Below are positions 10,069 to 50,250 of a stretch of 59,589 nt of DNA, piece by piece. Source of the stretch: a virus; the IMG/VR virus record IMGVR_UViG_3300044463_000021, positions 1 to 59,589 of that record. One strand, given 5' to 3'. Every line of letters begins with the position of its first letter. Positions within the stretch are counted from its first letter, which is position 1. Below the pieces are notes generated by a model. The model was not told the origin of the DNA, ran no database searches, and saw only the letters and a program-made list of their open reading frames with translations. A program made the translations under genes and the position numbers.

Positions 10069-10211
10069 CGGCGTCCCCTTCGGTTGTTTTTGGCAGGGTT
10101 GTACTCGGGCTCAACCTCGACGGCGGCAGGCTCAACGGGTTCGGTATCGGCAGGCTCGGCCTGATCCTCAGCCCAAACGTATTTGCCACGGCGATACTCG
10201 TCAGCGTTCAC
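10065..10211 (-). CDS. Small acidic protein (48 aa), not in the ORF track.
   Basis: GTGA overlaps occur at both ends. Hand translation gives VNADEYRRGKYVWAEDQAEPADTEPVEPAAVEVEPEYNPAKNNRRGRR. Confidence 0.4.
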   Translation of the reverse strand: MNADEYRRGKYVWAEDQAEPADTEPVEPAAVEVEPEYNPAKNNRRGRR

Positions 10212-13200
10212 CGCGCGACCTCCACGTCGAGCACGTACGCCCCGCCCCAGTCGCCCTTGAGTTCTCCCCGGCCGTGCTGGGCCACGACCCGGAAGGTCAG
10301 ACCGCGGTCCAGCAGAATTTCCGACTCCTGCTGATCACGCTCTGTCCCTTTACGGTCAGCCATGCGGATCGCCGAGGTGCCCTCTGGGACCGTGATCCGC
10401 AGGACCGTTCCACCGAACCAAGAAGCATGTGCTGCGTCGGTAGTGGTGGAGACGAAGGCCTTGTCGGTGAACTCTTTGCCGACAAGGTTGCGTCGCTCGC
10501 CGATCGCCTCATCCGGCCTGACGCCGCCGATCCTTTCGGCACCGCGATACACAAGGATCGGCTCGGGCAGTGGACTTTCGGCCATCACCGCGTCGATTGC
10601 TTTGACGCGCGCTTTGGTCTCGGGCGTCATCTTCTCGGTGCCCCGCATTTGCGCGCTCATCTCGAACGAACCCGGGCGGCCAGATGCGGTTTCCGCCCTG
10701 TTGTCGCCCGCCCGATACCACAAGGCGTCAGCTCGGGGGTCCTTGGCCGCAGTTAGGGCATCCAGGCTGCGTGGCAGCACAGCCAGCGCGGCATCGCCGG
10801 TAACTGCATCAGGGCTAGTCCGCCGGTCCGTTTGCGTTTCGGCAGGCACAGCCTTCTTGCGCGGCTCCGCCTTCTTGCGTGGGGCACGTTTCGCCGGGGG
10901 CTTCGGTGCAGGCTCGGCCTCCGGAACGGCCACCACCTCAGGCACATCGGGCAGCTTCTTGCCCCGCCCAGGCCTGCCGTGCACCTTCTGGTCTGGGTGC
11001 CCTGGATGGTTATACAGCGCCTGCGGCAGTACGACCGCTGTATTCGACACGTCACCGGCCAGAGACCGGTCAGCCAACTCCTCCAACAAGTCTGCGAAAT
11101 CGGCGGCCTCGTCAAAGTCTTCGAGCAGCAGGACATCTGTCTCGGCCTCGTCGGGATTGCCCACCTTGTCGGATGGCCCAATCTCCACCAGCCCACTGGT
11201 CCACAGCAGCGCAGACAGCTCACCATGATCGCCGAGCGGTACGCGGCTTAGCTCGACATGCTCATCGCCCAGCTTCCACCCGGGAAGGGTGGTGGCCCGG
11301 AACCCATCCAGAACGCCAGCAAGCTGCTTCGCCTCTTGAGGGGGTAGGAAAAATCCGCCGTTGTCGAAGTCCAGGGTGATATCGCCGTCGCCAGCGATCG
11401 ACATCGACACCTCGCCGTAGGCGGTCTCCATCGACGCCTCACGCCGGTTCGCCTTCGCATGCCTGCGCTCGCGGAGGTCCTTCAACGCCTCCAACGCGGT
11501 TTCGGCCTCACCGTTGTCGTCTTCGTCCTCACCCATGTCCTTCGTGAGCTTCGACAGTTTGGCCATCAGGTCGTCCAGTTCGGACACCACCTGACCCGCA
11601 GACTTGGAAAACCGGCCACGACGGTCACGTTTATGCTGCGACTCGGTGAACTCCGCACGCGGCAGACCGGCACGATTCGCCAGCGGACGCCACACCACCG
11701 CCTGCGGGAGGCGAGGAGCAGCGTTCTCGATACCCGGCCACTCCTCATAAGAGCCGAACGTTTCGATCGCCTCAAACGCCTCGAATGCCGGATGCCGATA
11801 GTCGCCAGGCCACGCGACCTTCCAGCCACCGTCCACGGGGCCGAAACTCAACGTCTCCGACCCATAATTCGGATCGTCTGGTCCACCCGTTATCGCACCG
11901 TCCCGGTGGACCCGAACGCGGCCCAAGTTAGTGTCAACATCGATCGTGTCCACATCCGGGTACACGACGTCACCGTTGTCATCCTCACCGGCCTTGACGA
12001 AGGTCTCGAACTCGTCGAAGCCCTCCCAGACAACGTTCTGGGCGTTCCGGATCCGAGTCCATGACTTGCCGTCAAAGGCAGGCTCCACCACCGTGCCGTC
12101 AGCGGCGTTCAGCCTCAAGCCGACTTTGCGGTCATCGGTGGGGAACACATCCAAAGGCCCCGACGCCATCGCGACGCGTGACACACCCGCTGACCGGCGC
12201 ACCGACTGTGACAAGGCTCCGGCTTCAGCCCGCGAAAGTTTGATCTTCTCGTCGGAGTCGAGCAGCTCCAACTCAACGAGGCCTTCGCCGTCGTAGGAAA
12301 CCTCGGCGAACCCAGATGGCTGGCTACGGTCGCCGCCGTCGTCGGGATAGGAGTACACCGACTTCCGGTCGGCGTCGTAGTCCGGATCGGCCGCGCTCTC
12401 CAGCACCTCAGCCAGCTTCCACCGCGCACCATTGTCCAGCCCACCCGACTTGCCTGTACCGCCCGCATTGTTGGCCAAAGACAGCTGCAAACCGCCCTTG
12501 CCGACGGTTGCGGTGACAGTTCCGTTGGCGAACATGTGCTCCCGGTGGAAGGCAGGGATACCGCCGAACGCCGCCCATTTCCCGTCGTCGTCGCGGCGTT
12601 GGGTGGGGTCGTATTTGGCCAGGCGTTGCCGGGACTGCTGCACCCGCACCTGAAAAAACACCGTCCCAGCCAGGTTCGACACCGACGGAGCGGCCACCAG
12701 CAGCATGTCCACGAACACGCGGCCCTCATCCGGATCGTCGAGCTGAAGAACACCCTCACCATCTGGATCGTCAACCACATCCGGGTCACCGATCTGGAAG
12801 ACACCAGAACCACCGCGGGTGACCTTCAGCTCCCCGTCGGCTGTGGTGAACTCGCCAACCACAGCGTTGTAGTCATCCCAGGCAGGTGACTCGTACCACT
12901 CATTGAGCTGCTGATGCCACCACTGCGAATACTCCTCCCGTGTCGTGACCGACGCGGGCACCTCCCACTCGGGAAGCTCCGGAGACGCAACGACAGGCAG
13001 AGCCGCGAACTCGTTGATCGCAGCCGACACCTCCCGTGCCTGCTGTGGCGTGAACCGGACACTGCCCTCGTCCCAGTCGACGCCTATGTCACCGTCGGTG
13101 TACGTCGTGAAGGCCAACTCGCCGCTGGCGGAGTCCATGACCAGACCGCGGCCATCGTCTTCGGGCTCGTCCACGTTCAGGTCGTCGTCGTCCACATCGG

Positions 13201-14308
13201 ACGACTCCAACCCGCGCAGCTGATCCATCGCCCGGTCAAGTTCAGCCCGCTCGTCGTCGCCCAGCTTGCCGCGCAACGCCTCCAGCTTCTCCAGCACCGA
13301 ACCGAGGGCACCCGTTCGCGTAAACCGGCCCTTGCCGTCACGTTTGTGCAGGCTCTCGTTGAAGTCGGCGCGCAGCAACAGCGCCTGCGCCTGCTCGAAA
13401 CGCATCCCCATCAACTCGACGATGATCTCGTCCAGGTCGCGTACCTTCGTGCCGGACAGCCGCTGCCGCAATGCACGCAGCGTCGCCAACGCTGCTGCCA
13501 CGTCAGGCTCGACCTGCGCCCGCAGGCGTGCAGTATCAGCCGCATCCTTCTTGCCGTGCGTCAGCGGAATGTCTGTGACCTCACCAGCGAACGCCACCCG
13601 GATACGGTCGAAGGCAATCAGGCCGACCCGGTCGGTCAGCTCCTCCACCCGGCCCGCATCATCGGTGTACTCAAGCGTCAGGTGCGGAACGAAAGGCTTG
13701 TGTGGCTCGGGCAGGTCCGCGCCATAGTCCTCAACCGCCGTCTCGGCAGCGGCATGCGCTTTGACGATGTCGTCGCCGCCCAAGCCGAGCACGACACATG
13801 GCTCGTCGCCAGCGGGATTGAAGATCGCCACGTTGAACGCGTCAGCGGTGAACGGGCGCAGCTGCTCCGCATAGGCGCGCACCAGTTCGATCAGATGCTC
13901 GCGTGACTGGGCGCTGAAGTCCGCGCCTTTGCCCAGATAGCGCAGGGTGACGTGAAGCTCATCGGCTGGCTCACCACCCTCGACTGCCAGCCGTGTCGCA
14001 TCGGCGGCTGTTGGGACCAGTGCGATCATCGCACCCGTGTGCGCCTCGGCAGCAGCACGTGGCCGTGTCAGCACATCCGCACGGGCCAACACGCCGATAC
14101 CGGCAATCAACGCCAGCGCATCGGCCACAAAGGCGTCCTGCGCATCGCCAGCAGCATCCAGATCCGCGTGATGCTGGTTGTAATCGGAGCCATCCACGCG
14201 GCCTATCGGACTGAACGCTGAGCCCGCCGAGTGCACGTTCGCCAACGCCCACTTGGTGTGCAGCTGGCGAACAGCCCGCAGCCGCTCCTGCCTCGGAGTC
14301 AACGTCAT
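10208..14308 (-). CDS. Giant head-module multidomain protein (1366 aa) with a 2H phosphoesterase (LigT-like) domain and a C-terminal ADP-ribosyltransferase domain.
   Basis: H-x-T motifs ELHVTLRYLG and VPHLTLEY. ART triad LVYRGAE, FVSTTTD, QESEILLD. Repeated HKRDxxGRF-type motifs. The start was taken at the ATGA-coupled ATG 14308; the track ORF extends to 14362. Confidence 0.75.
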   Translation of the reverse strand: MTLTPRQERLRAVRQLHTKWALANVHSAGSAFSPIGRVDGSDYNQHHADLDAAGDAQDAFVADALALIAGIGVLARADVLTRPRAAAEAHTGAMIALVPTAADATRLAVEGGEPADELHVTLRYLGKGADFSAQSREHLIELVRAYAEQLRPFTADAFNVAIFNPAGDEPCVVLGLGGDDIVKAHAAAETAVEDYGADLPEPHKPFVPHLTLEYTDDAGRVEELTDRVGLIAFDRIRVAFAGEVTDIPLTHGKKDAADTARLRAQVEPDVAAALATLRALRQRLSGTKVRDLDEIIVELMGMRFEQAQALLLRADFNESLHKRDGKGRFTRTGALGSVLEKLEALRGKLGDDERAELDRAMDQLRGLESSDVDDDDLNVDEPEDDGRGLVMDSASGELAFTTYTDGDIGVDWDEGSVRFTPQQAREVSAAINEFAALPVVASPELPEWEVPASVTTREEYSQWWHQQLNEWYESPAWDDYNAVVGEFTTADGELKVTRGGSGVFQIGDPDVVDDPDGEGVLQLDDPDEGRVFVDMLLVAAPSVSNLAGTVFFQVRVQQSRQRLAKYDPTQRRDDDGKWAAFGGIPAFHREHMFANGTVTATVGKGGLQLSLANNAGGTGKSGGLDNGARWKLAEVLESAADPDYDADRKSVYSYPDDGGDRSQPSGFAEVSYDGEGLVELELLDSDEKIKLSRAEAGALSQSVRRSAGVSRVAMASGPLDVFPTDDRKVGLRLNAADGTVVEPAFDGKSWTRIRNAQNVVWEGFDEFETFVKAGEDDNGDVVYPDVDTIDVDTNLGRVRVHRDGAITGGPDDPNYGSETLSFGPVDGGWKVAWPGDYRHPAFEAFEAIETFGSYEEWPGIENAAPRLPQAVVWRPLANRAGLPRAEFTESQHKRDRRGRFSKSAGQVVSELDDLMAKLSKLTKDMGEDEDDNGEAETALEALKDLRERRHAKANRREASMETAYGEVSMSIAGDGDITLDFDNGGFFLPPQEAKQLAGVLDGFRATTLPGWKLGDEHVELSRVPLGDHGELSALLWTSGLVEIGPSDKVGNPDEAETDVLLLEDFDEAADFADLLEELADRSLAGDVSNTAVVLPQALYNHPGHPDQKVHGRPGRGKKLPDVPEVVAVPEAEPAPKPPAKRAPRKKAEPRKKAVPAETQTDRRTSPDAVTGDAALAVLPRSLDALTAAKDPRADALWYRAGDNRAETASGRPGSFEMSAQMRGTEKMTPETKARVKAIDAVMAESPLPEPILVYRGAERIGGVRPDEAIGERRNLVGKEFTDKAFVSTTTDAAHASWFGGTVLRITVPEGTSAIRMADRKGTERDQQESEILLDRGLTFRVVAQHGRGELKGDWGGAYVLDVEVAR

Positions 14309-15204
14309 GGAGAGGTCACCCCGCGCCAACTCGACCCCATCAAAATTGCCTTGCCGATCCACCAGTCATCCCGACCGGCGCCCGGCCAACGACCCACCTG
14401 GGAAATCTCAAACGGCGTCGGGTTTTCCGCATTACCCTCGGCGGCCGCGAACAGGCGCTCCGACAGTGCCTCGGCTGCCGCCAGCTGCTCCTCGCGGCGC
14501 TCCTGCCTTATCAGGTCAACGCGAAGCGGGTACTTCTCATCGGCGAGTGAGGCCTCACCGCTCAACGAGTCAATGGCCGCAAACGCGCGCTGGGCTACCT
14601 TGTCGAAGTCTCGCTCTGACGCCCAGTCATAGCCCTTACGTGCCCATGCGTAGCCGCCCACGTCAATGTTGGCGGTCAGCTCCACCCGCTCAATGCCGCT
14701 GTCGCGGTACCAGCGAAACAGGTGCTGGTTGAAACGTTCGGCAAAGCCCTGCCCCTGAACTGTCCGGTCCAGCTCGAGCAGCGTGTGTTCAACCGAGATC
14801 CCGTCTGTTTCGTCAGCCGTGACGGTGCGAACGAAATGGCCAACCTTATTGCCGTCGCCGTCGCGAACACTTCCGCTGATCTTCGTTTCGCCGTCGGACA
14901 CCGCGATGGCTACATCCGATGTGGACAGGTCGCCAAATGTGCCCGTGAAGCCCTCTACTATCGCGGCTCTTACGTCGGCGTCTAGATCGTCGGAATCATC
15001 GCCGAATTCGGGCTGGCCAAGGAACTTGCCGACATTGGCAATAGCGTCGTAGACGCTTATGCCAAAGTCTTTGGCGAACTTGCCGTCGTCGTCGCGTTTC
15101 TGGCCTGGATCAAACTTCGCGATCGTCGGTCGCAGCAGCGTTTCTGCTCGGGCCAGCACGGCCGCCGACTCCCGCGCGCGCGCAAACAACGTTGGGGTCG
15201 TCAT
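14305..15204 (-). CDS. Head-module protein (299 aa) with a KRDDDGKF motif and a GNAT-like acetyltransferase core.
   Basis: ATG at 15204 overlaps the portal stop. FDPGQKRDDDGKFAKDFG. LELDRTVQGQGFAERFNQHLFRWYRDSGIERVELTANIDVGGYAWARKGYDW resembles GNAT motif A. Confidence 0.45.
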   Translation of the reverse strand: MTTPTLFARARESAAVLARAETLLRPTIAKFDPGQKRDDDGKFAKDFGISVYDAIANVGKFLGQPEFGDDSDDLDADVRAAIVEGFTGTFGDLSTSDVAIAVSDGETKISGSVRDGDGNKVGHFVRTVTADETDGISVEHTLLELDRTVQGQGFAERFNQHLFRWYRDSGIERVELTANIDVGGYAWARKGYDWASERDFDKVAQRAFAAIDSLSGEASLADEKYPLRVDLIRQERREEQLAAAEALSERLFAAAEGNAENPTPFEISQVGRWPGAGRDDWWIGKAILMGSSWRGVTSP

Positions 15205-18200
15205 CAGCCCGCCGCCGGATTCCACGTCGCCTTCACAGTTCCCCGACATCGGTCCCGGCCGAGGCAGCCCCGATACTTGCCGCCGCCGTAGTCCACCCAC
15301 GCCGCGATCCACGACGGATAGACGGTGCCGTCGACAGCACCACACTGAATGCAGTTATGGACGAGCACGCCCTCGGTCCAGAACGTCTCGTCGCCAGGGA
15401 CCGTGAAGTCGTATACCTCACCGCAATAATCGTCGTACTCGACACGGGAAATCGTTGACAGCACTACAATTGAGGTATCGAAAAGGTCTGCATCACCTGT
15501 GGCAGAGCGGTCAAGAAGGGACCGCTCTGCAAAGGATGTTCCGTCCGGGCGGCCTGGCATCGCCGAAACCCGGACTACACGCCGCCCACTTGCAAACTGT
15601 GCGGAATCGTCATGACCAAGTCCAACAGGGCCACCGCTGTGTACTGCTCCAACGCATGCAAGTTCGCCGACCCCGAAGTTCGGGCCAAGCTCGGCGCGCC
15701 GAAGCGCGGCCCCATCAAGACTTGCCCCGGATGTGGAACGGACTTCCAAGTCGCTGCCGGTATCGCCCACCGCTACAACTACTGCTCCAAAGCTTGCAGC
15801 AACAACCGTGGAGTCGACGCGATCTGCCAAAGGTGCGGATCCGCCTTCCGGCACAGCCGGACCCAGAACCGCCACTACTGCAGCGAGGCCTGCCGGCGAC
15901 CCCCCATCATCGTCAGCTGCGCTCACTGCGGCACCGAGTTCAGGATCTTGCCAGCCAAGTCGGGCATCAACAACTACTGCACCCAGCGGTGCTACTTTGC
16001 CAGCGGAACCGAGACCAGCATCGAACGTGTGGTCCGCGAAACCCTCGAATACCTGGGCTACAGCCACCGGACCCAGGCCCAGATCGGACGCTGGACTGTC
16101 GACTTTGTTGTCGGTACCTGGCTCGTCATCGAAGCAGACGGTGCCTACTGGCACTCGTTGCGCCCAGATGTTGACCTGCGGAAGACCACCGACCTGTCCC
16201 GGCGCGGCTTCCATGTCTGGCGACTGCCTGAGTCCGAAATCCTCGCCACCGGGTTCGCCGCAGACCTTGAGCGTCGCTTGGTCGACCACGAGGTCGCCTT
16301 CGGCGAGATCGCCCGCTTCACGCCAGGCGAATCCATCCCCGTCGCGTACCAGCACAGGGTGGTCCCACGTCAGGCGAAGCGTTCTGCCGTCCGCCAGGTG
16401 CACCCTGGTCAGCTGCTCATGGACTTCGGAGACGGTGATTACTGACGGCCTCGTCCAGTTGCCCGCATGGGTCAGCAGTTCGTCGTCGAGGGTGACGTCC
16501 TTGGCGTAGACAAGCCCCGCCGGTGTGGTCACCCGCATGTCAGGCGCGAGACACGTATTGACGTCGTTCACTTCGGCGCTGCTGTAGATGATCTGCGGGA
16601 CGTAGTCGTCATCAACGGGCAGCACTGGATCGCCGGGAGACCCGGGGTCGCCGCCCGCCGCTGACTCCACCTCACGCGCCCCAAGCAGACGCCCCTGATT
16701 TTGGGCACGCGTCAGGACACCGCCCAGCTGCCCCGACAGCGCCCGATCCGACAGGCCGTCCAGCGCACCATCCACTGCAGCCAAAACCTCGGCCGGCGGC
16801 ACGCCAGGCGCGAACGCAGACACCGCAGCCCTCGCCGCCACAGCCGCAAACCCGGCACCGAGAAGGACTGCGGCGGCCACAGCCACCGGACCCAACATCG
16901 ACTCATCCGGGGCCGGCGGCTCCACCACAGGTGCACCCTGCGCCGCCAGATCGTCCACCACCCGCTGTCCCGACACCGCCGCAAGGTCTGTCATCGCCGC
17001 CGTGATCGCAGCAGCAGCCTCACCCGTCGACACCGACATGCGCGCGAGAGCGGCAGGGTCGTTCGCGGCGACCGCCTGCTCCACCTGGGCACGGATCTCC
17101 ACACGCTGAGCCGCAGACACCGCGGGCCACGCCGCCAGCAACGCTGCCAGCGCTGTCTCCCAGTCGCCCTGCACACCCGCCAGCTCCGGATCATCCGTCG
17201 GCGCCTGATTGCGTAGCGTCGGCGCGAGCAGTGCCTGCAACGGATCCGGCTTACCCGCAGGCTTACCGCCCGGCACACCGGGGGCTGCAGGCGGGGCTGG
17301 AGGCTCAGGCTTCTCAAACTTGATGGCTGGCAGCCCAAACTTTTCACACGCATCCGCGAAATCAGCACCCAACGGCACCAGGGTGGCGACCGCTTGAACC
17401 CTCGACGTCCGCGACGTGTTCTCCGCCTCAGTGTCCTCCGAAACCGGGGACACGTAGTCGAACTCCAGCCCGACACCCGTGCTGCCGAACTGCGGCAAAA
17501 CCCTCCGGTTCAGGGCACCCTTCCAGCGTTCCAGACGCGGTACGAGCAGCCACTGCGCAAACATGGCGATCGACGCCTCGCCCTGCGCCCGGTTGACATC
17601 GTCAACCTCGCCCAACGCAAACTTGGGGAACCCGTACGCCTGCTTGATGCCGGCCTCGGTCACCCCACGCAGCTCGGTGAACTGCATGTCCCGCTGCGAG
17701 ATGGTCCGCTCAACCCACTTGCCGTGCTCCAGCAGCGCCACCCGGTGCGCGTTGGCTACGCCGCGGTGCTGCTCATTCCACCGTTCACGCAGCTCGTTGA
17801 ACTCGTTGTCGGACAGCGTCTTGGGGACTTCGATGATGCCGCCCGGCTCCGCAGAGTTGAGGAAGAAGTTGCGGTTCCACTCCATGCTGTACCGGGTCGA
17901 GTCGATGTCGGCCTGCACCGAGCGGATCGGACCCAGGCCGCGGTAGTGGTTGTTCGGGTCCGGCCGGCGGATGAACACCACATCGGTGGGCAGCAGCGGC
18001 ACCGGCTCACCGTCAGGGGACCGGTACACGTAGCCGAGGAGGAACTTTTTCGCATCCGGGACCGGTTCCATCCGGTCCGGGCGGATCGGCCACAACTCCA
18101 GCGGGATCGACGCCTTCGACGATTTGCCGATCACCAGCCACGTTTCGCCGGTCAAATCCTGATGCTGCTGCCCAGCCTCGAAAAGTTCCTGCCGCGAGTA

Positions 18201-45750: not shown

Positions 45751-46053
45751 GTGGAAGAACCAACAGCCGATCAATGCACCAACCGCGAGCGGGTCGACCT
45801 CTGCGATGGCCAGGTCGGCTGGGCATGCTGGTATCCCACGATGGGCGGCTACGTCGGCAAGGCCCTGGTTGTCGCAGATGACAACTGTCATGACGTGTTC
45901 GTCTGGCACAACGGCGACTTTCCGTTCGCCGGTCAGGACCCGCCGTGGGAGGGGATGCCTGTGCCGTCGCCGTCGAAGCTGCACCATTGCGATGGCAGCC
46001 AATTCGTTGCGTTCGGCCAGTTCCTGATGCAGCTGGAGGCCGACCGTGGATGA
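45751..46053 (+). CDS. Hypothetical protein (100 aa, GTG start).
   Basis: RBS AGGAGAGG 7 nt upstream of the GTG. The sequence ends ...LEADRG. Confidence 0.5.
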   Translation: MEEPTADQCTNRERVDLCDGQVGWACWYPTMGGYVGKALVVADDNCHDVFVWHNGDFPFAGQDPPWEGMPVPSPSKLHHCDGSQFVAFGQFLMQLEADRG

Positions 46054-46957: not shown

Positions 46958-47353
46958 ATGAGGGGCGCACCGGTTCACCCGGACGAATACGACGGGGGAC
47001 ACCTCAACACGGACGAGAAGCTACGGGCAGCCGGTTACGCCGCCGGGCTGGACGTCTGGGAGCAGGTCGGCAAGGCGTACTGCGAGCACTACCTAGGTGT
47101 GTTGGGTCAGGAGGTTGTTGACACGAACCCCGGGGACCACGCAGCCCCCGCAGTGAATGCGGGGGCTGCGTCCCGGAGCCGATCCCGGGCGACTGGCAAG
47201 GTAGCTCGCGATCAGGATACCCGCGGTTCGGTGAGACCGGTGCCGTCGCATTCCGTGCACTCCAAAGTCTCGAACTCAAGTCCATCGCCGATGTGCCGGA
47301 CGCCGGTACCGTTGCAAAGCGGGCAGGTGATTACCTCCGGCTGGTCGTCCTGA
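46958..47353 (+). CDS. Hypothetical ORF with an unreliable 3' end.
   Basis: The first ~50 codons look coding (MRGAPVHPDEYDGGHLNTDEKLRAAGYAAGLDVWEQVGKAYCEHY). The ORF then runs through a terminator hairpin and overlaps a convergent gene. Confidence 0.3.
   Translation: MRGAPVHPDEYDGGHLNTDEKLRAAGYAAGLDVWEQVGKAYCEHYLGVLGQEVVDTNPGDHAAPAVNAGAASRSRSRATGKVARDQDTRGSVRPVPSHSVHSKVSNSSPSPMCRTPVPLQSGQVITSGWSS
47139..47171. terminator. Hairpin with a 13-bp stem between the convergent plus and minus blocks.
   Basis: ACGCAGCCCCCGC pairs with GCGGGGGCTGCGT, with the loop AGTGAAT. Confidence 0.6.
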
Positions 47354-47409
47354 GCGACCGTGTCGTCCATGGGGCGGATCGGGTCGGGGTCGATATCGCG
47401 CCAGCTCAT
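47212..47409 (-). CDS. DnaJ-type zinc-finger-like small protein (65 aa).
   Basis: CPLCNGTG and CTECDGTG motifs. Confidence 0.55.
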   Translation of the reverse strand: MSWRDIDPDPIRPMDDTVAQDDQPEVITCPLCNGTGVRHIGDGLEFETLECTECDGTGLTEPRVS

Positions 47410-47612
47410 GATTCCTCCGTCGATGTTCCGTTCTGGGGTGGCGGGTTCCGCCTGACGTAGCGTTCCAGGCTCTTCCTGATCACCTCGGACAGGTTGTCGC
47501 CGCGGCGCTCCGCAGCTGCCTTCGCTGCATCCCAGGTTTTGTCCGGAATGCGGATGGTCCGCTGGGGTGTCTTAGGAGCGTTCGGCACGTGCGGCAGTAT
47601 GTCAGGTGTCAT
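47406..47612 (-). CDS. Ribbon-helix-helix (CopG/Arc-like) DNA-binding protein (68 aa).
   Basis: RTIRIPDKTWDAAKAAAERRGDNLSEVIRKSLERYV. The start codon sits inside a GGTGTCATGACAGG site. Confidence 0.6.
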   Translation of the reverse strand: MTPDILPHVPNAPKTPQRTIRIPDKTWDAAKAAAERRGDNLSEVIRKSLERYVRRNPPPQNGTSTEES

Positions 47613-48922
47613 GACAGGTCCATCTCCGGGCCGAACAGTTCGCCCTGGCCTTCGACCTCTGATGGTGGCTTGGCCACGCCAAGTGCCTTAGCGATCTCGC
47701 CCGGGTCGGTGGTGCGCCAGCGGGCGATGCGGCAGTAGTCGGCGGACATGTCGACGCTGATGCCGATACGGCCATAGGCCCTGGCGACGAGGGCCGTCGT
47801 TCCAGTTCCTCCGAATGGGTCAAGGACAACTGCTGGTCGCGTCGGCGCAGTCGGCGCAGGGCATGCGCAGGCCTCGCCCGCCCGAGAGACCATCGATGAG
47901 CCCCGTGGCTTGTCACGCCAGTTGTTGCCCGCGTAGTGCTTGTCCCGTTTGAAGGCGGTGTCTGGGCTGCAGTCGTCCTGGATGGCGAAGTCGCGGTTGT
48001 AGGTCGGCCGCCGGGGCTCATCGCACTCGGTGCAGTAACCGCTGGGCGACCAGCCCCTGATCAGGCGCCGCGGCCACTCCATGGGGAACGCCGCAAAGTG
48101 GTCTACACCCAGCTCAGCTGGCACCTTAAGCGGCTCGCTGGCGATGGCCCAGACCGAGCCGGGCAGCTTGCCGAGGGGGTTGAAGGCAAGGGGCACGCCA
48201 GGGTGGCCGACCGCGCCGAGGCGGGACGAGCGGCGCGCGGCGTCCTTGGCGCTGACGCGACCGGCAAGGTCGGAGGGCCGCAGGTTGCGCGGATCGCTGG
48301 GCTCGCGGATTTCGTCTACGGAGGCGAAGTAACGCGGGCCCATCGTGAGGTGGACCCAGTCCTCGTGTGACCTGCGCACTCGGTCGGTGACCGACTCGGG
48401 CAGCGCGTTGAGCTTCTCCCACACCATGACCGCACGGACGGTAAGCCCGAGGTCGTCGAGGCAGGCGATGCGGTACCGCTCGGGCATAAGCAGCAGCGAC
48501 TTGCGGGGGTAGCCGAGGTCGGAACGGTCCAACGGGGACCGACCAGCACGGCGCGCAGTCCGGCCGAGGTTCTTGGCGTCAACGGTCGTCTTGCCCGGCG
48601 CACCCCTGCCGCTGTAGTACGAGTCACCAAGGTCCACAAACATCGACCCGGTCGGCTTTAACACCCGCATCCACTCGCGGGTGCAGGCTAGAAGCGCGGC
48701 GGTGAACTCTGCCGGGGTCTCCTCGCTGCCGATCTGACCGTCATAGTGCTCGCCTCCGTCCGTGTATGACCGAAGCCCGAAGTACGGCGGCGATGTCACG
48801 ATCAGGTCGACGCTGCAATCCGCTAGCGGAAGCGCTCTGGCATCCGCGCGGAGTATCAGCGCGGATCCAGCAGATTGAGCGTTTGTCCTGCATGAAAGGT
48901 TCTCGACCGCAGCGGGTGTCAT
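47609..48922 (-). CDS. DNA methyltransferase, N6-adenine or N4-cytosine class (437 aa).
   Basis: DLIVTSPPYFGLRSY (the D/SPPY motif). VVLDPFGGTGTTALVA (FxGxG). No adjacent restriction endonuclease was seen. Confidence 0.85.
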   Translation of the reverse strand: MTPAAVENLSCRTNAQSAGSALILRADARALPLADCSVDLIVTSPPYFGLRSYTDGGEHYDGQIGSEETPAEFTAALLACTREWMRVLKPTGSMFVDLGDSYYSGRGAPGKTTVDAKNLGRTARRAGRSPLDRSDLGYPRKSLLLMPERYRIACLDDLGLTVRAVMVWEKLNALPESVTDRVRRSHEDWVHLTMGPRYFASVDEIREPSDPRNLRPSDLAGRVSAKDAARRSSRLGAVGHPGVPLAFNPLGKLPGSVWAIASEPLKVPAELGVDHFAAFPMEWPRRLIRGWSPSGYCTECDEPRRPTYNRDFAIQDDCSPDTAFKRDKHYAGNNWRDKPRGSSMVSRAGEACACPAPTAPTRPAVVLDPFGGTGTTALVARAYGRIGISVDMSADYCRIARWRTTDPGEIAKALGVAKPPSEVEGQGELFGPEMDLS

Positions 48923-48998
48923 GACACCATCTTACCACCGTGTCATGACACCGGATGCAGGATTTGTCATGACACCAAAAGGGTGATCTGTCATGACA
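48915..48998. promoter_or_regulatory. Four palindromic (G)GTGTCATGACAC(C) sites phased exactly 24 bp apart, between the methyltransferase start and the transposase start.
   Basis: Dyad centres lie at 48921.5, 48945.5, 48969.5 and 48993.5. Site 1 is a perfect 14-bp palindrome that includes the methyltransferase ATG. Confidence 0.8.
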
Positions 48999-50097
48999 CA
49001 CTTAGTTGGGTGAGCCATCCGAACAGTCCGCTGACCTTCGAGGGAAAACGTCGGCTGTGCCAGCGGGTGGACTCGGGCAGGCCTATCGCGCACATCGCTG
49101 CCGAGGCCGGTATCAGCCGGGCCACACTGGCGAAGTGGTACGGCCGGTGGGTCGAGCTTGGCGAGGCCGGGCTGGTCGAGAAGTCGTCCCGGCCGCAGCG
49201 GTCACCGGCCGCGATCGGCGACGACATCGTGGACGCCATCCTGGATCTGCGCCGGGCCGAGAAGTGGGGCAACGCCCGCATCGCCGCACATCTGGCCGAG
49301 GTGGGCATCGAGGTGTCCGCCTCGACCGTGCAGCGCACCCTGAAGCGCCACGATCTGTCGCGGGTGCGGGACATGGACCCGCCCACCGGTGAGCCGATGC
49401 GGGTCGTGCGCTACGAGCACGCCAACGCCGGCGACATGGTCCACGTCGACATCAAGAAGGTCGGCCGGATCCCGAAGGGCGGCGGCTGGGCCGTCCACGA
49501 GCGCGGCACCGACGCGGCCCGGGCGTCCAAACGCAAGGGCAAAGGGACCGGGAAGGTCGGCTACGCCTACGTGCACTCCGCGGTCGACGACTACTCCAGG
49601 CTTGCCTACAGCGAGGTCCTGGGCGACGAAAAGGGCGTCACCGCGGCCGGGTTCTGGCAGCGGTCCTCGGTGTTCTTCGGCGGCTACGGGCTCACCCGCC
49701 TGCACCGGTGCCTGACCGACAACGGCTCCTGCTACCGGTCCCGGATATGGTCCGCGGCGTTGGCTGTCACGAGCACGGCACACAAGCGGACCAGGCCCTA
49801 CACGCCTCGTACGAACGGCAAGGTGGAGCGGTACAACGGGACGCTGCTACGCGAGTGGCTACGGCGGCGGCCGTACGACTCCGAAGAGGACCGCACGGCC
49901 GCGTTGGTCGAGTTCCTGAACTACTACAACCACGAGCGCCGTCACTCGGCGCTGGACTGGCAACCGCCCGTTTCGCGTACCCCGGCCCGTGGTGAGTTCA
50001 TCGTGCCCGAGCCGCTACCCGAGACGGTGGAGATCACGGAAGCTCAGATGTCCATCTTCGATCTGCTGGGCTGGCCCGTGTAAACAACGTCATGAAC
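48989..50097 (+). mobile_element. Possible IS481-family element; boundaries unresolved.
   Basis: The transposase gene is bracketed by TGTCATGACAC (48989) and GTCATGAAC (50089). No convincing long terminal inverted repeats or target duplication were seen. Confidence 0.3.
49010..50083 (+). CDS. IS481-family DDE transposase / rve integrase-core protein (357 aa from GTG 49010; the track ORF starts at 48983).
   Basis: N-terminal HTH HPNSPLTFEGKRRLCQRV...IAAEAGISRATLAKWYGRW. DDE-type motifs MVHVDIKKVGRI, CLTDNGSCYRS and RPYTPRTNGKVERYNGTL. Confidence 0.85.
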   Translation: MSHPNSPLTFEGKRRLCQRVDSGRPIAHIAAEAGISRATLAKWYGRWVELGEAGLVEKSSRPQRSPAAIGDDIVDAILDLRRAEKWGNARIAAHLAEVGIEVSASTVQRTLKRHDLSRVRDMDPPTGEPMRVVRYEHANAGDMVHVDIKKVGRIPKGGGWAVHERGTDAARASKRKGKGTGKVGYAYVHSAVDDYSRLAYSEVLGDEKGVTAAGFWQRSSVFFGGYGLTRLHRCLTDNGSCYRSRIWSAALAVTSTAHKRTRPYTPRTNGKVERYNGTLLREWLRRRPYDSEEDRTAALVEFLNYYNHERRHSALDWQPPVSRTPARGEFIVPEPLPETVEITEAQMSIFDLLGWPV

Positions 50098-50205
50098 TAC
50101 TACACCTAGGCGACGACACCCTAGGCAATGCACAGCTGTGGTCACTGCGGGAGGCCATCCGCGCGGAGATGCGCGCCGAGGGAATGACGGATTGAAACTG
50201 CGAAC

Positions 50206-50250
50206 AGGCCCGGTCCATCGTGGACCGGGCCTTTCACTTTTCGATCTTTT
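50206..50250 (+). terminator. Rho-independent terminator.
   Basis: AGGCCCGGTCCA (50206-17) pairs with TGGACCGGGCCT (50221-32), followed by TTCACTTTTCGATCTTTT. Confidence 0.8.

What the first reader, a model, noticed from the sequence alone, without database searches (positions are those of the whole stretch)
47605..50097. 24-bp-phased array of GTGTCATGACAC palindromes tying together an RHH gene, a methyltransferase and the transposase
Four palindromic sites lie in the 60-bp gap between the divergent methyltransferase start (48922, minus) and the transposase start (plus). Their dyad centres are at 48921.5, 48945.5, 48969.5 and 48993.5, exactly 24 bp apart. Site 1 (GGTGTCATGACACC) is a perfect 14-mer that contains the methyltransferase ATG. 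A fifth near-perfect site (GGTGTCATGACAGG, centre 47611.5) contains the ATG of the RHH gene and the stop of the methyltransferase, and both genes begin ATGACACC. A weaker sixth site (GTCATGAAC, centre 50092.5) follows the transposase stop. Every site contains CATG and TCATGA. Ordered palindrome arrays of this kind are typical of cooperative binding by RHH or HTH regulators, centromere-like sites, or multi-site transposon ends. Which of these applies cannot be decided from the sequence.
Basis: seen in the sequence. Interest (0 to 1): 0.7.

Follow-up and report, generated by a model that had tools for sequence, protein, structure and literature searches.

The report
Repressor operator array inside phage-borne transposon
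The evenly spaced palindromes are most likely the binding sites of a small Arc-like (ribbon-helix-helix) repressor that controls a DNA methyltransferase operon, and probably the neighbouring transposase, and the whole set lies on a 3-kb IS481-family jumping gene that has landed in a phage genome.

Summary
TGTCATGACA occurs exactly 5 times in 59.6 kb against 0.06 expected, four copies are exactly 24 bp apart, and the fifth lies at the MTase/RHH junction. Everything lies inside a 3,007-bp IS481-family transposon (47098-50104) with TGT-initiated inverted repeats and a CCTAGG target duplication, inserted into a small phage ORF that related phages keep intact. The "sixth site" is the conserved core of the IS right inverted repeat, not part of the array. 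Comparison settles which protein goes with the palindromes. They travel with the RHH gene across four DNA-methyltransferase types (three Pfam families) and PAPS-reductase-like cargo, with or without the transposase. They are absent from 80 transposase relatives and from the closest MTase homologue (L087), which has a divergent RHH with CGCG-centred sites. The central ATG of the palindrome is typically the start of a leaderless gene, with a TANNNT -10 hexamer 6-7 nt upstream. Best reading: an RHH autorepressor operator array over a leaderless promoter, extended to the transposase start. That makes it a new member of known kinds (Arc-like repressor/operator; IS481 cargo transposon). The methylation-target, centromere and transposon-end readings are not supported. 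No binding was tested.

The parts
47092..47097 (.). Left copy of the 6-bp target-site duplication, CCTAGG (NCTAGN type)
   Evidence: the same hexamer recurs at 50105-50110. NCTAGN duplications are described for IS481-family elements (PMC6794481).
47098..47124 (+). IRL of the IS481-family element: TGTGTTGGGTCAGGAGGTTGTTGACAC
   Evidence: Scores 16/17 on the clade IR consensus TGT-N6-TCATGA(C/G)GTTG-NN-GAC, which was derived from whole-IS contigs. 21 of 30 positions are identical to IRR.
47212..47409 (-). Last cargo gene: a 65-aa CxxCxGxG zinc-ribbon protein whose start overlaps the RHH stop (ATGA)
   Evidence: It is present only in this variant of the element (absent from L082, L139 and L146).
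47406..47612 (-). RHH (Arc-like) repressor gene, 68 aa, translationally coupled to the MTase (ATGA overlap)
   Evidence: Pfam RHH_1 20.8 bits against a cut-off of 20.5; PHROG 6506 'Arc-like repressor', E = 1.9e-19; profile hits to the solved RHH proteins AvtR, VapB26, MazE, omega, ParG, NikR and CopG; the AF2 model shows an extended strand followed by two helices.
47605..47618 (.). Distal operator ('site 5'), GGTGTCATGACAGG, at the MTase stop / RHH start
   Evidence: A copy sits at the RHH 5' end in L082, L084, L139, L140/141 and L146. In phage Mbo4 it co-varies with the promoter operator (GTGTAAGTACAC).
47609..48922 (-). Cargo gene: N6_N4-class (beta) DNA methyltransferase, 437 aa
   Evidence: Pfam PF01555, E = 1.7e-29; PHROG 67. 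Target specificity is unknown.
48915..48928 (.). Operator site 1, GGTGTCATGACACC; its central ATG (48922-48920, minus strand) is the MTase start and the predicted +1 of a leaderless transcript
48929..48934 (-). Predicted -10 hexamer TAAGAT of the cargo operon, 6 nt upstream of the ATG
   Evidence: A TANNNT hexamer lies 6-7 nt before the palindrome ATG in 50 of 220 site-orientations, against a background of 0.0015 per position. There are 23 different hexamers. This is an inference; no TSS data exist.
48940..48951 (.). Operator site 2, GTGTCATGACAC (covers about -19 to -30 of the cargo promoter)
48964..48975 (.). Operator site 3, TTGTCATGACAC (an extra unit compared with the three-site variants)
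48988..48999 (.). Operator site 4, CTGTCATGACAC, the tnp-proximal site. The 10-mer ends 11 nt before the tnp GTG, and it overlaps a weak -10-like CACACT (48997-49002)
   Evidence: The 11-nt distance is identical in all five RHH-bearing IS variants. This site has decayed in tnp-less modules.
49010..50083 (+). IS481-family DDE transposase, 357 aa (the ORF is open from GTG 48983)
   Evidence: NCBIfam transpos_IS481 312 bits against a cut-off of 224; Pfam LZ_Tnp_IS481, HTH_32, rve and rve_3; called as 357 aa on the identical contig L081.
50078..50104 (-). IRR (reverse complement TGTAGTAGTTCATGACGTTGTTTACAC).
   Evidence: nearly the same end sequence is found in L001, L082, L139, L146 and L147.
50105..50110 (.). 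Right copy of the target-site duplication, CCTAGG
46958..47097 (+). 5' part of the interrupted phage ORF (it continues at 50111-50195)
   Evidence: Removing 47098-50110 restores a 74-codon ORF. Intact homologues at 78-83% identity occur in L128-L130 with no IS and no palindromes.
50111..50195 (+). 3' part of the interrupted phage ORF

Best explanation
A 3,007-bp IS481-family transposon (47098-50104) has inserted at a CCTAGG site in a small ORF of a tailed actinophage. It carries a leftward cargo operon (DNA methyltransferase, RHH repressor, zinc-ribbon protein) and a rightward transposase gene. The 87-bp divergent control region between them holds four GTGTCATGACAC palindromes. These are most likely the operators of the element's own Arc-like RHH protein. 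The cargo operon is read from a leaderless promoter. Its -10 hexamer TAAGAT lies between sites 1 and 2, and transcription and translation both start at the ATG in the centre of site 1. RHH bound at sites 1 and 2 would therefore cover the +1 position and the upstream promoter DNA and shut off its own operon. This negative autoregulation would hold a potentially harmful DNA-modifying enzyme at a set level. Sites 3 and 4 extend the array to 11 nt from the transposase start, so the same repressor probably also holds down transposase expression. The fifth palindrome, at the MTase/RHH junction, is a conserved auxiliary operator whose role (loop, roadblock or cassette boundary) is unresolved. SHOWN: the sites and their statistics; the IS ends, target duplication and empty site; the co-occurrence of palindromes with RHH genes; the conserved TANNNT geometry. 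INFERRED: that RHH binds the sites; that the transcripts are leaderless; repression; control of the transposase.
For: Sites: 5 exact 10-mers against 0.06 expected, with unrelated spacers. Element: the IR consensus comes from whole-IS contigs; IRL and IRR each score 16/17 and are flanked by CCTAGG on both sides; the transposase passes the NCBIfam IS481 cut-off; excision restores a 74-aa ORF that is intact in L128-L130; sister copies with near-identical IRs and CTAG-type flanks sit at other sites (L082, L139, L146). The palindromes go with RHH: RHH homologues at 53-91% identity lie downstream of an N6_N4 MTase (window, L142), a D12 MTase (L084), a C5 MTase (L139, L147), a PAPS-reductase-like protein (L082, L140, L141, L146) or unknown genes (L085), always with the palindromes at the operon start, and in L084, L085 and L140-142 without any transposase. 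In the reverse test, 38 of 47 array-bearing loci have an RHH-family ORF within 2 kb and 26 within 150 bp, against 2 hits in 485 kb of array-free DNA. None of 80 transposase relatives has the 10-mer, and L148 (tnp 84% identical) has none. Co-variation: L087 has an RHH relative with TGTCGCGACA sites; phage Mbo4 has GTGTAAGTACAC-type sites both at the MTase promoter and at the RHH start; Ecliptus and Majeke have other palindromes. Promoter: TANNNT lies 6-7 nt before the palindrome ATG in 50 of 220 site-orientations (about 0.7 expected), with 23 different hexamers. Transposase link: the proximal site is 11 nt from the GTG in 5 of 5 IS variants, and its outer half has decayed in the homologous tnp-less arrays of L084, L140 and L141. 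RHH identity.
Against: No binding, transcription or methylation data exist, so the RHH-operator assignment rests on co-occurrence and co-variation. The consensus sigma-70 scan finds no promoter here. The leaderless model rests on my own TANNNT statistic, whose arrays are partly related by descent. No convincing transposase promoter was found, only a weak CACACT hexamer, so co-repression of tnp is the weakest step. A spacing of 24 bp is 2.3 helical turns, so neighbouring sites are not on one face of the DNA as simple cooperative models would prefer. The structure model is only moderately confident (pLDDT 66) and Foldseek gives no significant hit. Pfam RHH_1 is barely above its threshold. About 9 of 47 array loci show no RHH; most are AT-rich look-alikes or arrays at a locus edge.
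Confidence: 0.75

Rival explanations
1. The palindromes are binding sites for the IS481 transposase (internal or multi-site transposon ends, or transposase autoregulation). The transposase's N-terminal HTH/leucine-zipper dimer would recognise the GTCATGAC core that the palindromes share with the terminal inverted repeats.
For: The octamer GTCATGAC/TCATGAC lies at positions 9-16 of the clade IR consensus and in the centre of every palindrome. TGACAC also occurs at the inner edge of the IRs. The array abuts the tnp start in five IS variants.
Against: 80 transposase relatives, including L001 (73%), plus L131 (68%) and L148 (84%), have the same IR core but no palindromes. The same arrays occur in many loci with no transposase (L084, L085, L140-142 and most of L088-L127). 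The L087 variant keeps the GTGTC/GACAC arms and loses the CATG core, so the arms are the conserved determinant, not the IR-like core. The true ends, with the target duplication, lie elsewhere.
Confidence: 0.08
2. The palindromes are targets of the cargo methyltransferase (CATG or TCATGA). They would form a methylation-sensitive switch of promoter or transposition activity, as Dam sites do in IS10 and IS50.
For: Every site contains CATG and TCATGA, the element carries an MTase, and IRR also contains TCATGA.
Against: The identical operator accompanies four MTase types from three unrelated Pfam families (N6_N4 of 437 aa and of 314 aa, D12, C5), as well as non-MTase cargo and RHH genes with no cargo. 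The MTase that is 85% identical (L087) sits beside CGCG-centred sites and its 8-kb contig has no TCATGA at all. This does not exclude incidental methylation of the sites by this particular enzyme.
Confidence: 0.05
3. The array is a centromere-like site bound by an RHH partition adaptor (ParG or omega type) that segregates an episomal prophage or plasmid.
For: The RHH profile hits omega and ParG weakly. Repeated sites are typical of type Ib/II centromeres.
Against: There is no ParA/ParM-type gene in the element or next to any of the homologous modules. Arrays have only 2-4 sites and coincide with promoter geometry (a -10 at a fixed offset, and gene starts inside the sites). The module sits inside a 3-kb IS.
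Confidence: 0.02
4. The module is a toxin-antitoxin-like pair in reverse gene order. The RHH would be an antitoxin that both neutralises the upstream enzyme and represses the operon, and the array would be a conditional-cooperativity operator.
For: The best PDB matches include the RHH antitoxins VapB26, MazE6/7, RelB and DinJ. The RHH is always the downstream, translationally coupled gene. Cargo enzymes that modify DNA can be harmful if over-expressed.
Against: The upstream partner varies across unrelated enzyme families, or is absent (RHH sits directly at the array in L095, L116, L117 and L126). A specific protein-protein neutralisation is therefore unlikely. None of the cargo families is a known toxin.
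Confidence: 0.07

Closest known systems
Arc/Mnt/CopG-type ribbon-helix-helix repressors of phages and plasmids (PHROG 6506 'Arc-like repressor'; phage P22 Arc, pMV158 CopG)
   Same: A small beta-alpha-alpha protein encoded next to short palindromic operators that overlap its own promoter, giving negative autoregulation. Family assignment comes from Pfam, PHROG and a PDB profile search.
   Different: The operator sequence GTGTCATGACAC and its multi-site layout are not described in the literature I could search. The centre of the operator is the start codon and the predicted +1 of leaderless genes, often in both directions. The repressor is the downstream gene of a cargo operon. A further operator sits at the repressor gene's own 5' end.
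IS481-family cargo transposons, e.g. TnRErm46/ISRe46 of Rhodococcus equi (PMC6794481)
   Same: An IS481-type DDE transposase, TGT-initiated inverted repeats, an NCTAGN 6-bp direct repeat, and passenger genes including a regulator between IRL and the transposase.
   Different: The cargo here is a DNA-modification gene under an RHH/operator cassette, and it is swapped between otherwise near-identical elements (N6_N4 MTase, C5 MTase, PAPS-reductase-like). The elements are found in phage genomes. The control region is shared with the transposase.
Controller (C) proteins of restriction-modification systems (C.PvuII, C.AhdI)
   Same: A small element-encoded DNA-binding protein that binds palindromic boxes at its own operon's promoter and sets the expression of DNA-modifying enzymes on a mobile module.
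   Different: C proteins are HTH proteins, not RHH. They control a restriction endonuclease and usually activate before they repress. No endonuclease is present here, and the MTase is an orphan.
Rhodococcus phage Mbo4 gp26-gp27 (NC_073475), and the RHH genes of Gordonia phage Ecliptus (gp45) and Mycobacterium phage Majeke (gp56)
   Same: Mbo4 has the same two-gene module: a PvuII-like MTase followed by an overlapping RHH 54% identical to the window's, with palindromes upstream of the MTase and again at the RHH 5' end.
   Different: The operator sequence differs (GTGTAAGTACAC). There is no IS481 element. The MTase there has an annotated ribosome-binding site rather than a leaderless start. gp27 is annotated as 'ssDNA binding protein'.
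Transposon-encoded repressors acting in a divergent tnp/cargo control region (Tn3 TnpR at res; CvkR of type V-K CAST, PMC9938897)
   Same: An element-encoded regulator binds several sites between divergently transcribed transposition and accessory genes and represses both.
   Different: The protein fold differs (RHH rather than serine recombinase or MerR). No recombination function is implied. Repression of the transposase is only inferred here.

Membership tests
IS481 family insertion sequence / cargo transposon | DDE transposase matching the IS481 family model above its curated threshold | tested here: met
   NCBIfam NF033577 transpos_IS481 scores 312 bits against a cut-off of 224. Pfam LZ_Tnp_IS481, HTH_32, rve and rve_3 also match.
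IS481 family insertion sequence / cargo transposon | Terminal inverted repeats beginning 5'-TGT that match the ends of related elements | tested here: met
   IRL at 47098 and IRR ending at 50104 each score 16/17 on a consensus built from whole-IS contigs.
IS481 family insertion sequence / cargo transposon | 6-bp target-site duplication of the NCTAGN type | tested here: met
   CCTAGG lies at 47092-47097 and at 50105-50110. L082 has CCTAGG on both sides and L139 has GCTAGG on both sides. The feature is described in PMC6794481.
IS481 family insertion sequence / cargo transposon | Evidence of mobility: an empty site, and copies at different loci | tested here: met
   Excision restores a 74-aa ORF that is intact in L128-L130. 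Sister copies lie in different contexts: L082, L139, L146 and L147.
Ribbon-helix-helix (Arc/MetJ/CopG) DNA-binding proteins | Sequence match to RHH family models | tested here: met
   Pfam RHH_1 scores 20.8 bits against 20.5, which is marginal. PHROG 6506 'Arc-like repressor' gives E = 1.9e-19. A profile search of the PDB finds AvtR at 4e-6, then VapB26, MazE, omega, ParG, NikR and CopG.
Ribbon-helix-helix (Arc/MetJ/CopG) DNA-binding proteins | beta-alpha-alpha fold that forms an intertwined dimer | tested here: inconclusive
   The AF2 monomer model has pLDDT 66, an extended N-terminal segment and helices 24-37 and 41-55. The top Foldseek hits are RHH proteins, but none has E <= 0.001. The dimer was not modelled.
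Ribbon-helix-helix (Arc/MetJ/CopG) DNA-binding proteins | Sequence-specific binding of the beta-sheet to repeated or palindromic operators | not testable with these tools
   Only indirect evidence: co-occurrence, and co-variation of operator with RHH variant.
Controller (C) protein / restriction-modification control | HTH C protein together with a linked restriction endonuclease | tested here: not met
   The regulator is an RHH, not an HTH protein. The element's only other genes are the MTase, a 65-aa zinc ribbon and the transposase.
ParG/omega-type centromere-binding system | Partner ParA-type NTPase and a centromere repeat array | tested here: not met
   No NTPase gene lies in the element or next to homologous modules. 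The arrays coincide with promoters.
Type II toxin-antitoxin with an RHH antitoxin | A conserved cognate toxin partner | tested here: not met
   The upstream partner varies across unrelated families or is absent.

The most novel reading that the evidence does not exclude
The RHH/operator pair may be a portable 'expression dock' for DNA-modification genes. Cargo genes are bracketed by two copies of the same palindrome, one at the promoter and one at the RHH start, and they are exchanged as cassettes at or near these sites. One IS481 lineage has captured this dock. The operator core GTCATGAC is also the core of that lineage's terminal inverted repeats. The repressor could therefore act on the IS ends as well, or the transposase on the operators. 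That would couple transposition to cargo expression and make the element a regulated shuttle of anti-restriction genes between actinophages.
Probability: 0.12. Interest if true: 0.6.

Novelty: new member of a known kind. Interest (0 to 1): 0.38.

Why it matters
The finding turns an unexplained repeat pattern into a testable regulatory unit. It gives a defined operator (GTGTC-NN-GACAC arms), a candidate repressor that is widespread in actinobacteriophages but annotated only generically or wrongly, and a compact leaderless and often bidirectional promoter design that would be useful for annotating actinophage genomes. It also documents an active-looking IS481 cargo transposon in phage genomes that carries interchangeable DNA-modification genes: four methyltransferase types from three families, and a PAPS-reductase-like enzyme. 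That bears on how phages acquire and regulate protection against host restriction. None of this requires a new kind of mechanism.

Tried and rejected
(1) A recent tandem duplication as the origin of the 24-bp periodicity: TRF finds nothing and the spacers are unrelated. (2) An RNA-level explanation, with a hairpin over the start codons: folds of the three regions are no better than shuffles, z = +0.8, +0.7 and -0.8. (3) My own first guess that site 5 (47600, TGTCAGGTGTCATGAC) was the IRL: I dropped it when the consensus scan found a much better IRL at 47098 with a matching CCTAGG duplication. (4) The E. coli-type promoter scan found no promoter. It needs a -35 hexamer, so I replaced it with a TANNNT-offset count. 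(5) A blastn search of the phage collection with the 3-kb locus gave only one irrelevant 119-bp hit. (6) Literature searches for the motif, and for RHH / leaderless / actinobacteriophage, returned nothing about this system. (7) The Foldseek search of the RHH model gave no significant hit, only a consistent ranking of RHH proteins. (8) An internal promoter for the RHH upstream of site 5: no TANNNT in the window, and nothing conserved in relatives. (9) The exact-sequence look-up of the MTase found only one other short contig, with the same element.


Full report
OBSERVATION. GGTGTCATGACACC lies at 48915-48928. GTGTCATGACAC lies at 48940-48951, TTGTCATGACAC at 48964-48975 and CTGTCATGACAC at 48988-48999. 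The dyad centres are exactly 24 bp apart. GGTGTCATGACAGG lies at 47605-47618. The 10-mer TGTCATGACA occurs five times in the 59,589-bp window, only at these positions, against 0.06 expected (0 of 100 shuffles reach 5). The spacers between sites are unrelated and TRF reports no tandem repeat. So the sites and their spacing are conserved, not a duplicated unit. Site 1 holds the MTase ATG. Site 5 holds the RHH ATG, which overlaps the MTase stop codon.

WHAT THE LOCUS IS. The three proteins are an RHH protein, an N6_N4-class DNA methyltransferase and an IS481-type DDE transposase. The transposase scores 312 bits on the NCBIfam IS481 model, whose cut-off is 224. Eighty genomic relatives of the transposase were fetched. 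Short contigs that are whole copies of related ISs give a clear end consensus: TGT-N6-(T/C)CATGA(C/G)GTTG-NN-TGAC, flanked by CTAG. Scanning the window with this consensus gives two top hits. IRL is at 47098 (TGTGTTGGGTCAGGAGGTTGTTGACAC) and is preceded by CCTAGG. IRR ends at 50104 (reverse complement TGTAGTAGTTCATGACGTTGTTTACAC) and is followed by CCTAGG.

The span 47098-50104 is therefore a 3,007-bp IS481-family element with the family's NCTAGN 6-bp target duplication, a feature described for TnRErm46/ISRe46 (PMC6794481). Removing it together with one CCTAGG restores a 74-codon ORF. Three related phage contigs encode that ORF uninterrupted, and they have no IS, no RHH and no palindromes. The window itself is a tailed-phage genome with portal, large terminase and major head proteins. 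It is present in relatives that have none of the palindromes.

WHICH PROTEIN GOES WITH THE PALINDROMES. None of the 80 transposase relatives contains TGTCATGACA. The RHH has few close homologues (15). Their contexts form a natural experiment:

- With the transposase: the RHH lies downstream of an N6_N4 MTase (window), a PAPS-reductase-like protein (L082, L146; PHROG 424), or a C5 MTase (L139, L147).
- Without any transposase: the RHH lies downstream of a D12 MTase (L084), a different 314-aa N6_N4 MTase (L142), the PAPS-reductase-like protein (L140, L141), or unknown genes (L085).

In every case two to four GTGTCATGACAC palindromes sit at the operon start, and usually one more sits at the RHH start. 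Conversely, the closest MTase homologue (85% identity, L087) has no such palindrome.

A pattern scan of viral contigs for paired palindromes found 40 loci. With an HMM of the RHH family, 38 of 47 array-bearing loci have an RHH-family ORF within 2 kb, and 26 have one within 150 bp. In 485 kb of array-free control DNA there are only two hits. Those two hits are informative. L087 has a divergent RHH relative next to three (C/G)TGTCGCGACAC sites in the same roughly 35/25-bp layout. So the GTGTC/GACAC arms are conserved, not the CATG centre.

Isolated phages carry 40-54% identical RHH genes. In Rhodococcus phage Mbo4 the RHH follows a PvuII-like MTase. GTAAGTACAC/GTGTACTTAC repeats lie upstream of that MTase, and GTGTAAGTACAC lies at the RHH 5' end. 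The promoter operator and the RHH-start operator therefore co-vary. This shows that the window's site 5 is a selected site and not a by-product of the MTP codons.

PROMOTER ARCHITECTURE. Across 42 distinct arrays the centre-to-centre spacing is bimodal: 24-27 bp in 38 of 68 intervals, and 34-35 bp in 16 of 68. A TANNNT hexamer lies 6-7 nt upstream of the palindrome's central ATG in 50 of 220 site-orientations, where about 0.7 would be expected by chance. There are 23 different hexamers, so only the pattern is conserved. ORFs commonly begin at that ATG, often in both directions from two palindromes 26 bp apart. This is the geometry of actinobacterial leaderless promoters (my own knowledge of TANNNT -10 elements and leaderless mRNAs in actinobacteria).

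In the window, TAAGAT (48934-48929 on the minus strand) lies 6 nt upstream of the MTase ATG. Site 1 therefore covers +1, and site 2 covers about -19 to -30.

THE TRANSPOSASE LINK. Five variants of the same IS have 87-100% identical transposases and near-identical IRs: the window, L082, L139, L146 and L147. All five carry the array. In all five the transposase-proximal palindrome ends exactly 11 nt before the transposase GTG, and it overlaps a weak CAC(A/G)(A/C)T hexamer at the position expected for a leaderless -10. In the homologous transposase-less arrays of L084, L140 and L141 the spacer is retained (GATCGAC..) but the outer half of that third palindrome has decayed. This suggests, but does not prove, that the proximal site is maintained to control the transposase.

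Sister IS variants have other regulators instead. L001, L131 and L137 have an HTH gene and a GTTAGC-N8-GCTAAC palindrome. L148 has an HTH_17 gene. An element-encoded regulator acting at the tnp/cargo divergent region thus seems to be a recurring theme in this clade.

RHH IDENTITY. Pfam RHH_1 is just above its threshold. PHROG 6506 'Arc-like repressor' matches at E = 1.9e-19. A family profile hits solved RHH proteins: AvtR at 4e-6, then VapB26, MazE, omega, ParG, NikR and CopG. The AF2 monomer model (pLDDT 66) shows an extended strand followed by two helices. Foldseek ranks RHH proteins first, but without significance.

MECHANISM AND RIVALS. My best reading, at confidence about 0.75, is that the array is the operator set of the element's Arc-like RHH autorepressor, laid over a leaderless cargo promoter and extended to the transposase start. 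Site 5 would be an auxiliary operator of unresolved role. The rivals fare as follows:

- Transposase binding sites, or multi-site transposon ends: contradicted by arrays without a transposase, by transposases without arrays, and by the real ends lying elsewhere.
- A methylation target: contradicted by four MTase types from three families and non-MTase cargo sharing one operator, and by the CGCG-centred variant next to the near-identical MTase.
- A centromere: no partner NTPase, and the arrays have promoter geometry.
- A toxin-antitoxin pair: the partner gene varies or is absent.
- RNA structure: not supported.

NOVELTY. RHH repressor/operator systems and IS481 cargo transposons are both known kinds, so this is a new member of each. 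Some details may be new. I found no description of this operator or module in the searchable literature. The operator-centred leaderless start codon, the second operator at the repressor gene, and the swapping of DNA-modification cargo within one phage-borne IS lineage are the notable particulars. All functional statements remain inferences from sequence comparison.

Noticed in passing
window 10208-14362 (-): A 1,384-aa protein with an N-terminal region matching the RNA-ligase and head-maturation-protease PHROGs and a C-terminal ADP-ribosyltransferase-toxin-like domain (PHROG 3895). It lies next to the portal gene and may be a MuF-like head protein with a toxin domain.
   Followed up: no
L001 1-2217; L131/L137 2396-5074: Sister IS481 variants (transposase 73% and 68% identical) carry different passenger genes, with an HTH regulator at the IRL end and a GTTAGC-N8-GCTAAC palindrome in the tnp/cargo divergent region. 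This may be an analogous control design with a different repressor.
   Followed up: partly
L087 2070-2400: The MTase that is 85% identical to the window's lies in an operon divergent from a 67-aa RHH relative. The intergenic region has three (C/G)TGTCGCGACAC sites: the same arms as the window's operator with a CGCG centre.
   Followed up: partly
L144 (Rhodococcus phage Mbo4, NC_073475) 886-2198: gp27, annotated 'ssDNA binding protein', is an RHH of this family (54% identical). It overlaps the end of the PvuII-like MTase gp26. GTAAGTACAC-type repeats lie upstream of gp26 and again at the gp27 5' end. The annotation is probably wrong.
   Followed up: partly
L139 1434-1490: In the C5-MTase variant of the IS, the palindrome ATG starts an 18-codon leaderless uORF whose stop overlaps the MTase ATG (ATGA). 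This suggests translational coupling of the cargo to a leaderless mini-ORF.
   Followed up: no
L005-L008, L011 (Streptomyces/Pseudonocardia), about 250 bp upstream of the tnp match: These IS481 relatives share more than 250 bp of conserved upstream coding sequence but differ downstream of IRR. They are probably further cargo-carrying elements of the family.
   Followed up: no
window 47212-47409 (-): A 65-aa CxxCxGxG (DnaJ-type) zinc-ribbon gene is the last gene of the cargo operon, and only in this variant of the element. Its function is unknown.
   Followed up: no
window 50206-50232 (+): A strong terminator-like hairpin (12-bp stem followed by a T-run) lies just after the interrupted phage ORF.
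   Followed up: no
window 45886-45895 and 15609-15616: Isolated near-sites (TGTCATGACG, and a lone GTCATGAC) lie outside the element. About 0.6 octamers are expected by composition, so these are probably chance.
   Followed up: no
L146 1595-3927: This IS copy lies directly next to a phage tyrosine integrase gene. Its flanks read CTTAGC and CTAGCC rather than a perfect 6-bp duplication, so the target may have mutated or rearranged.
   Followed up: no
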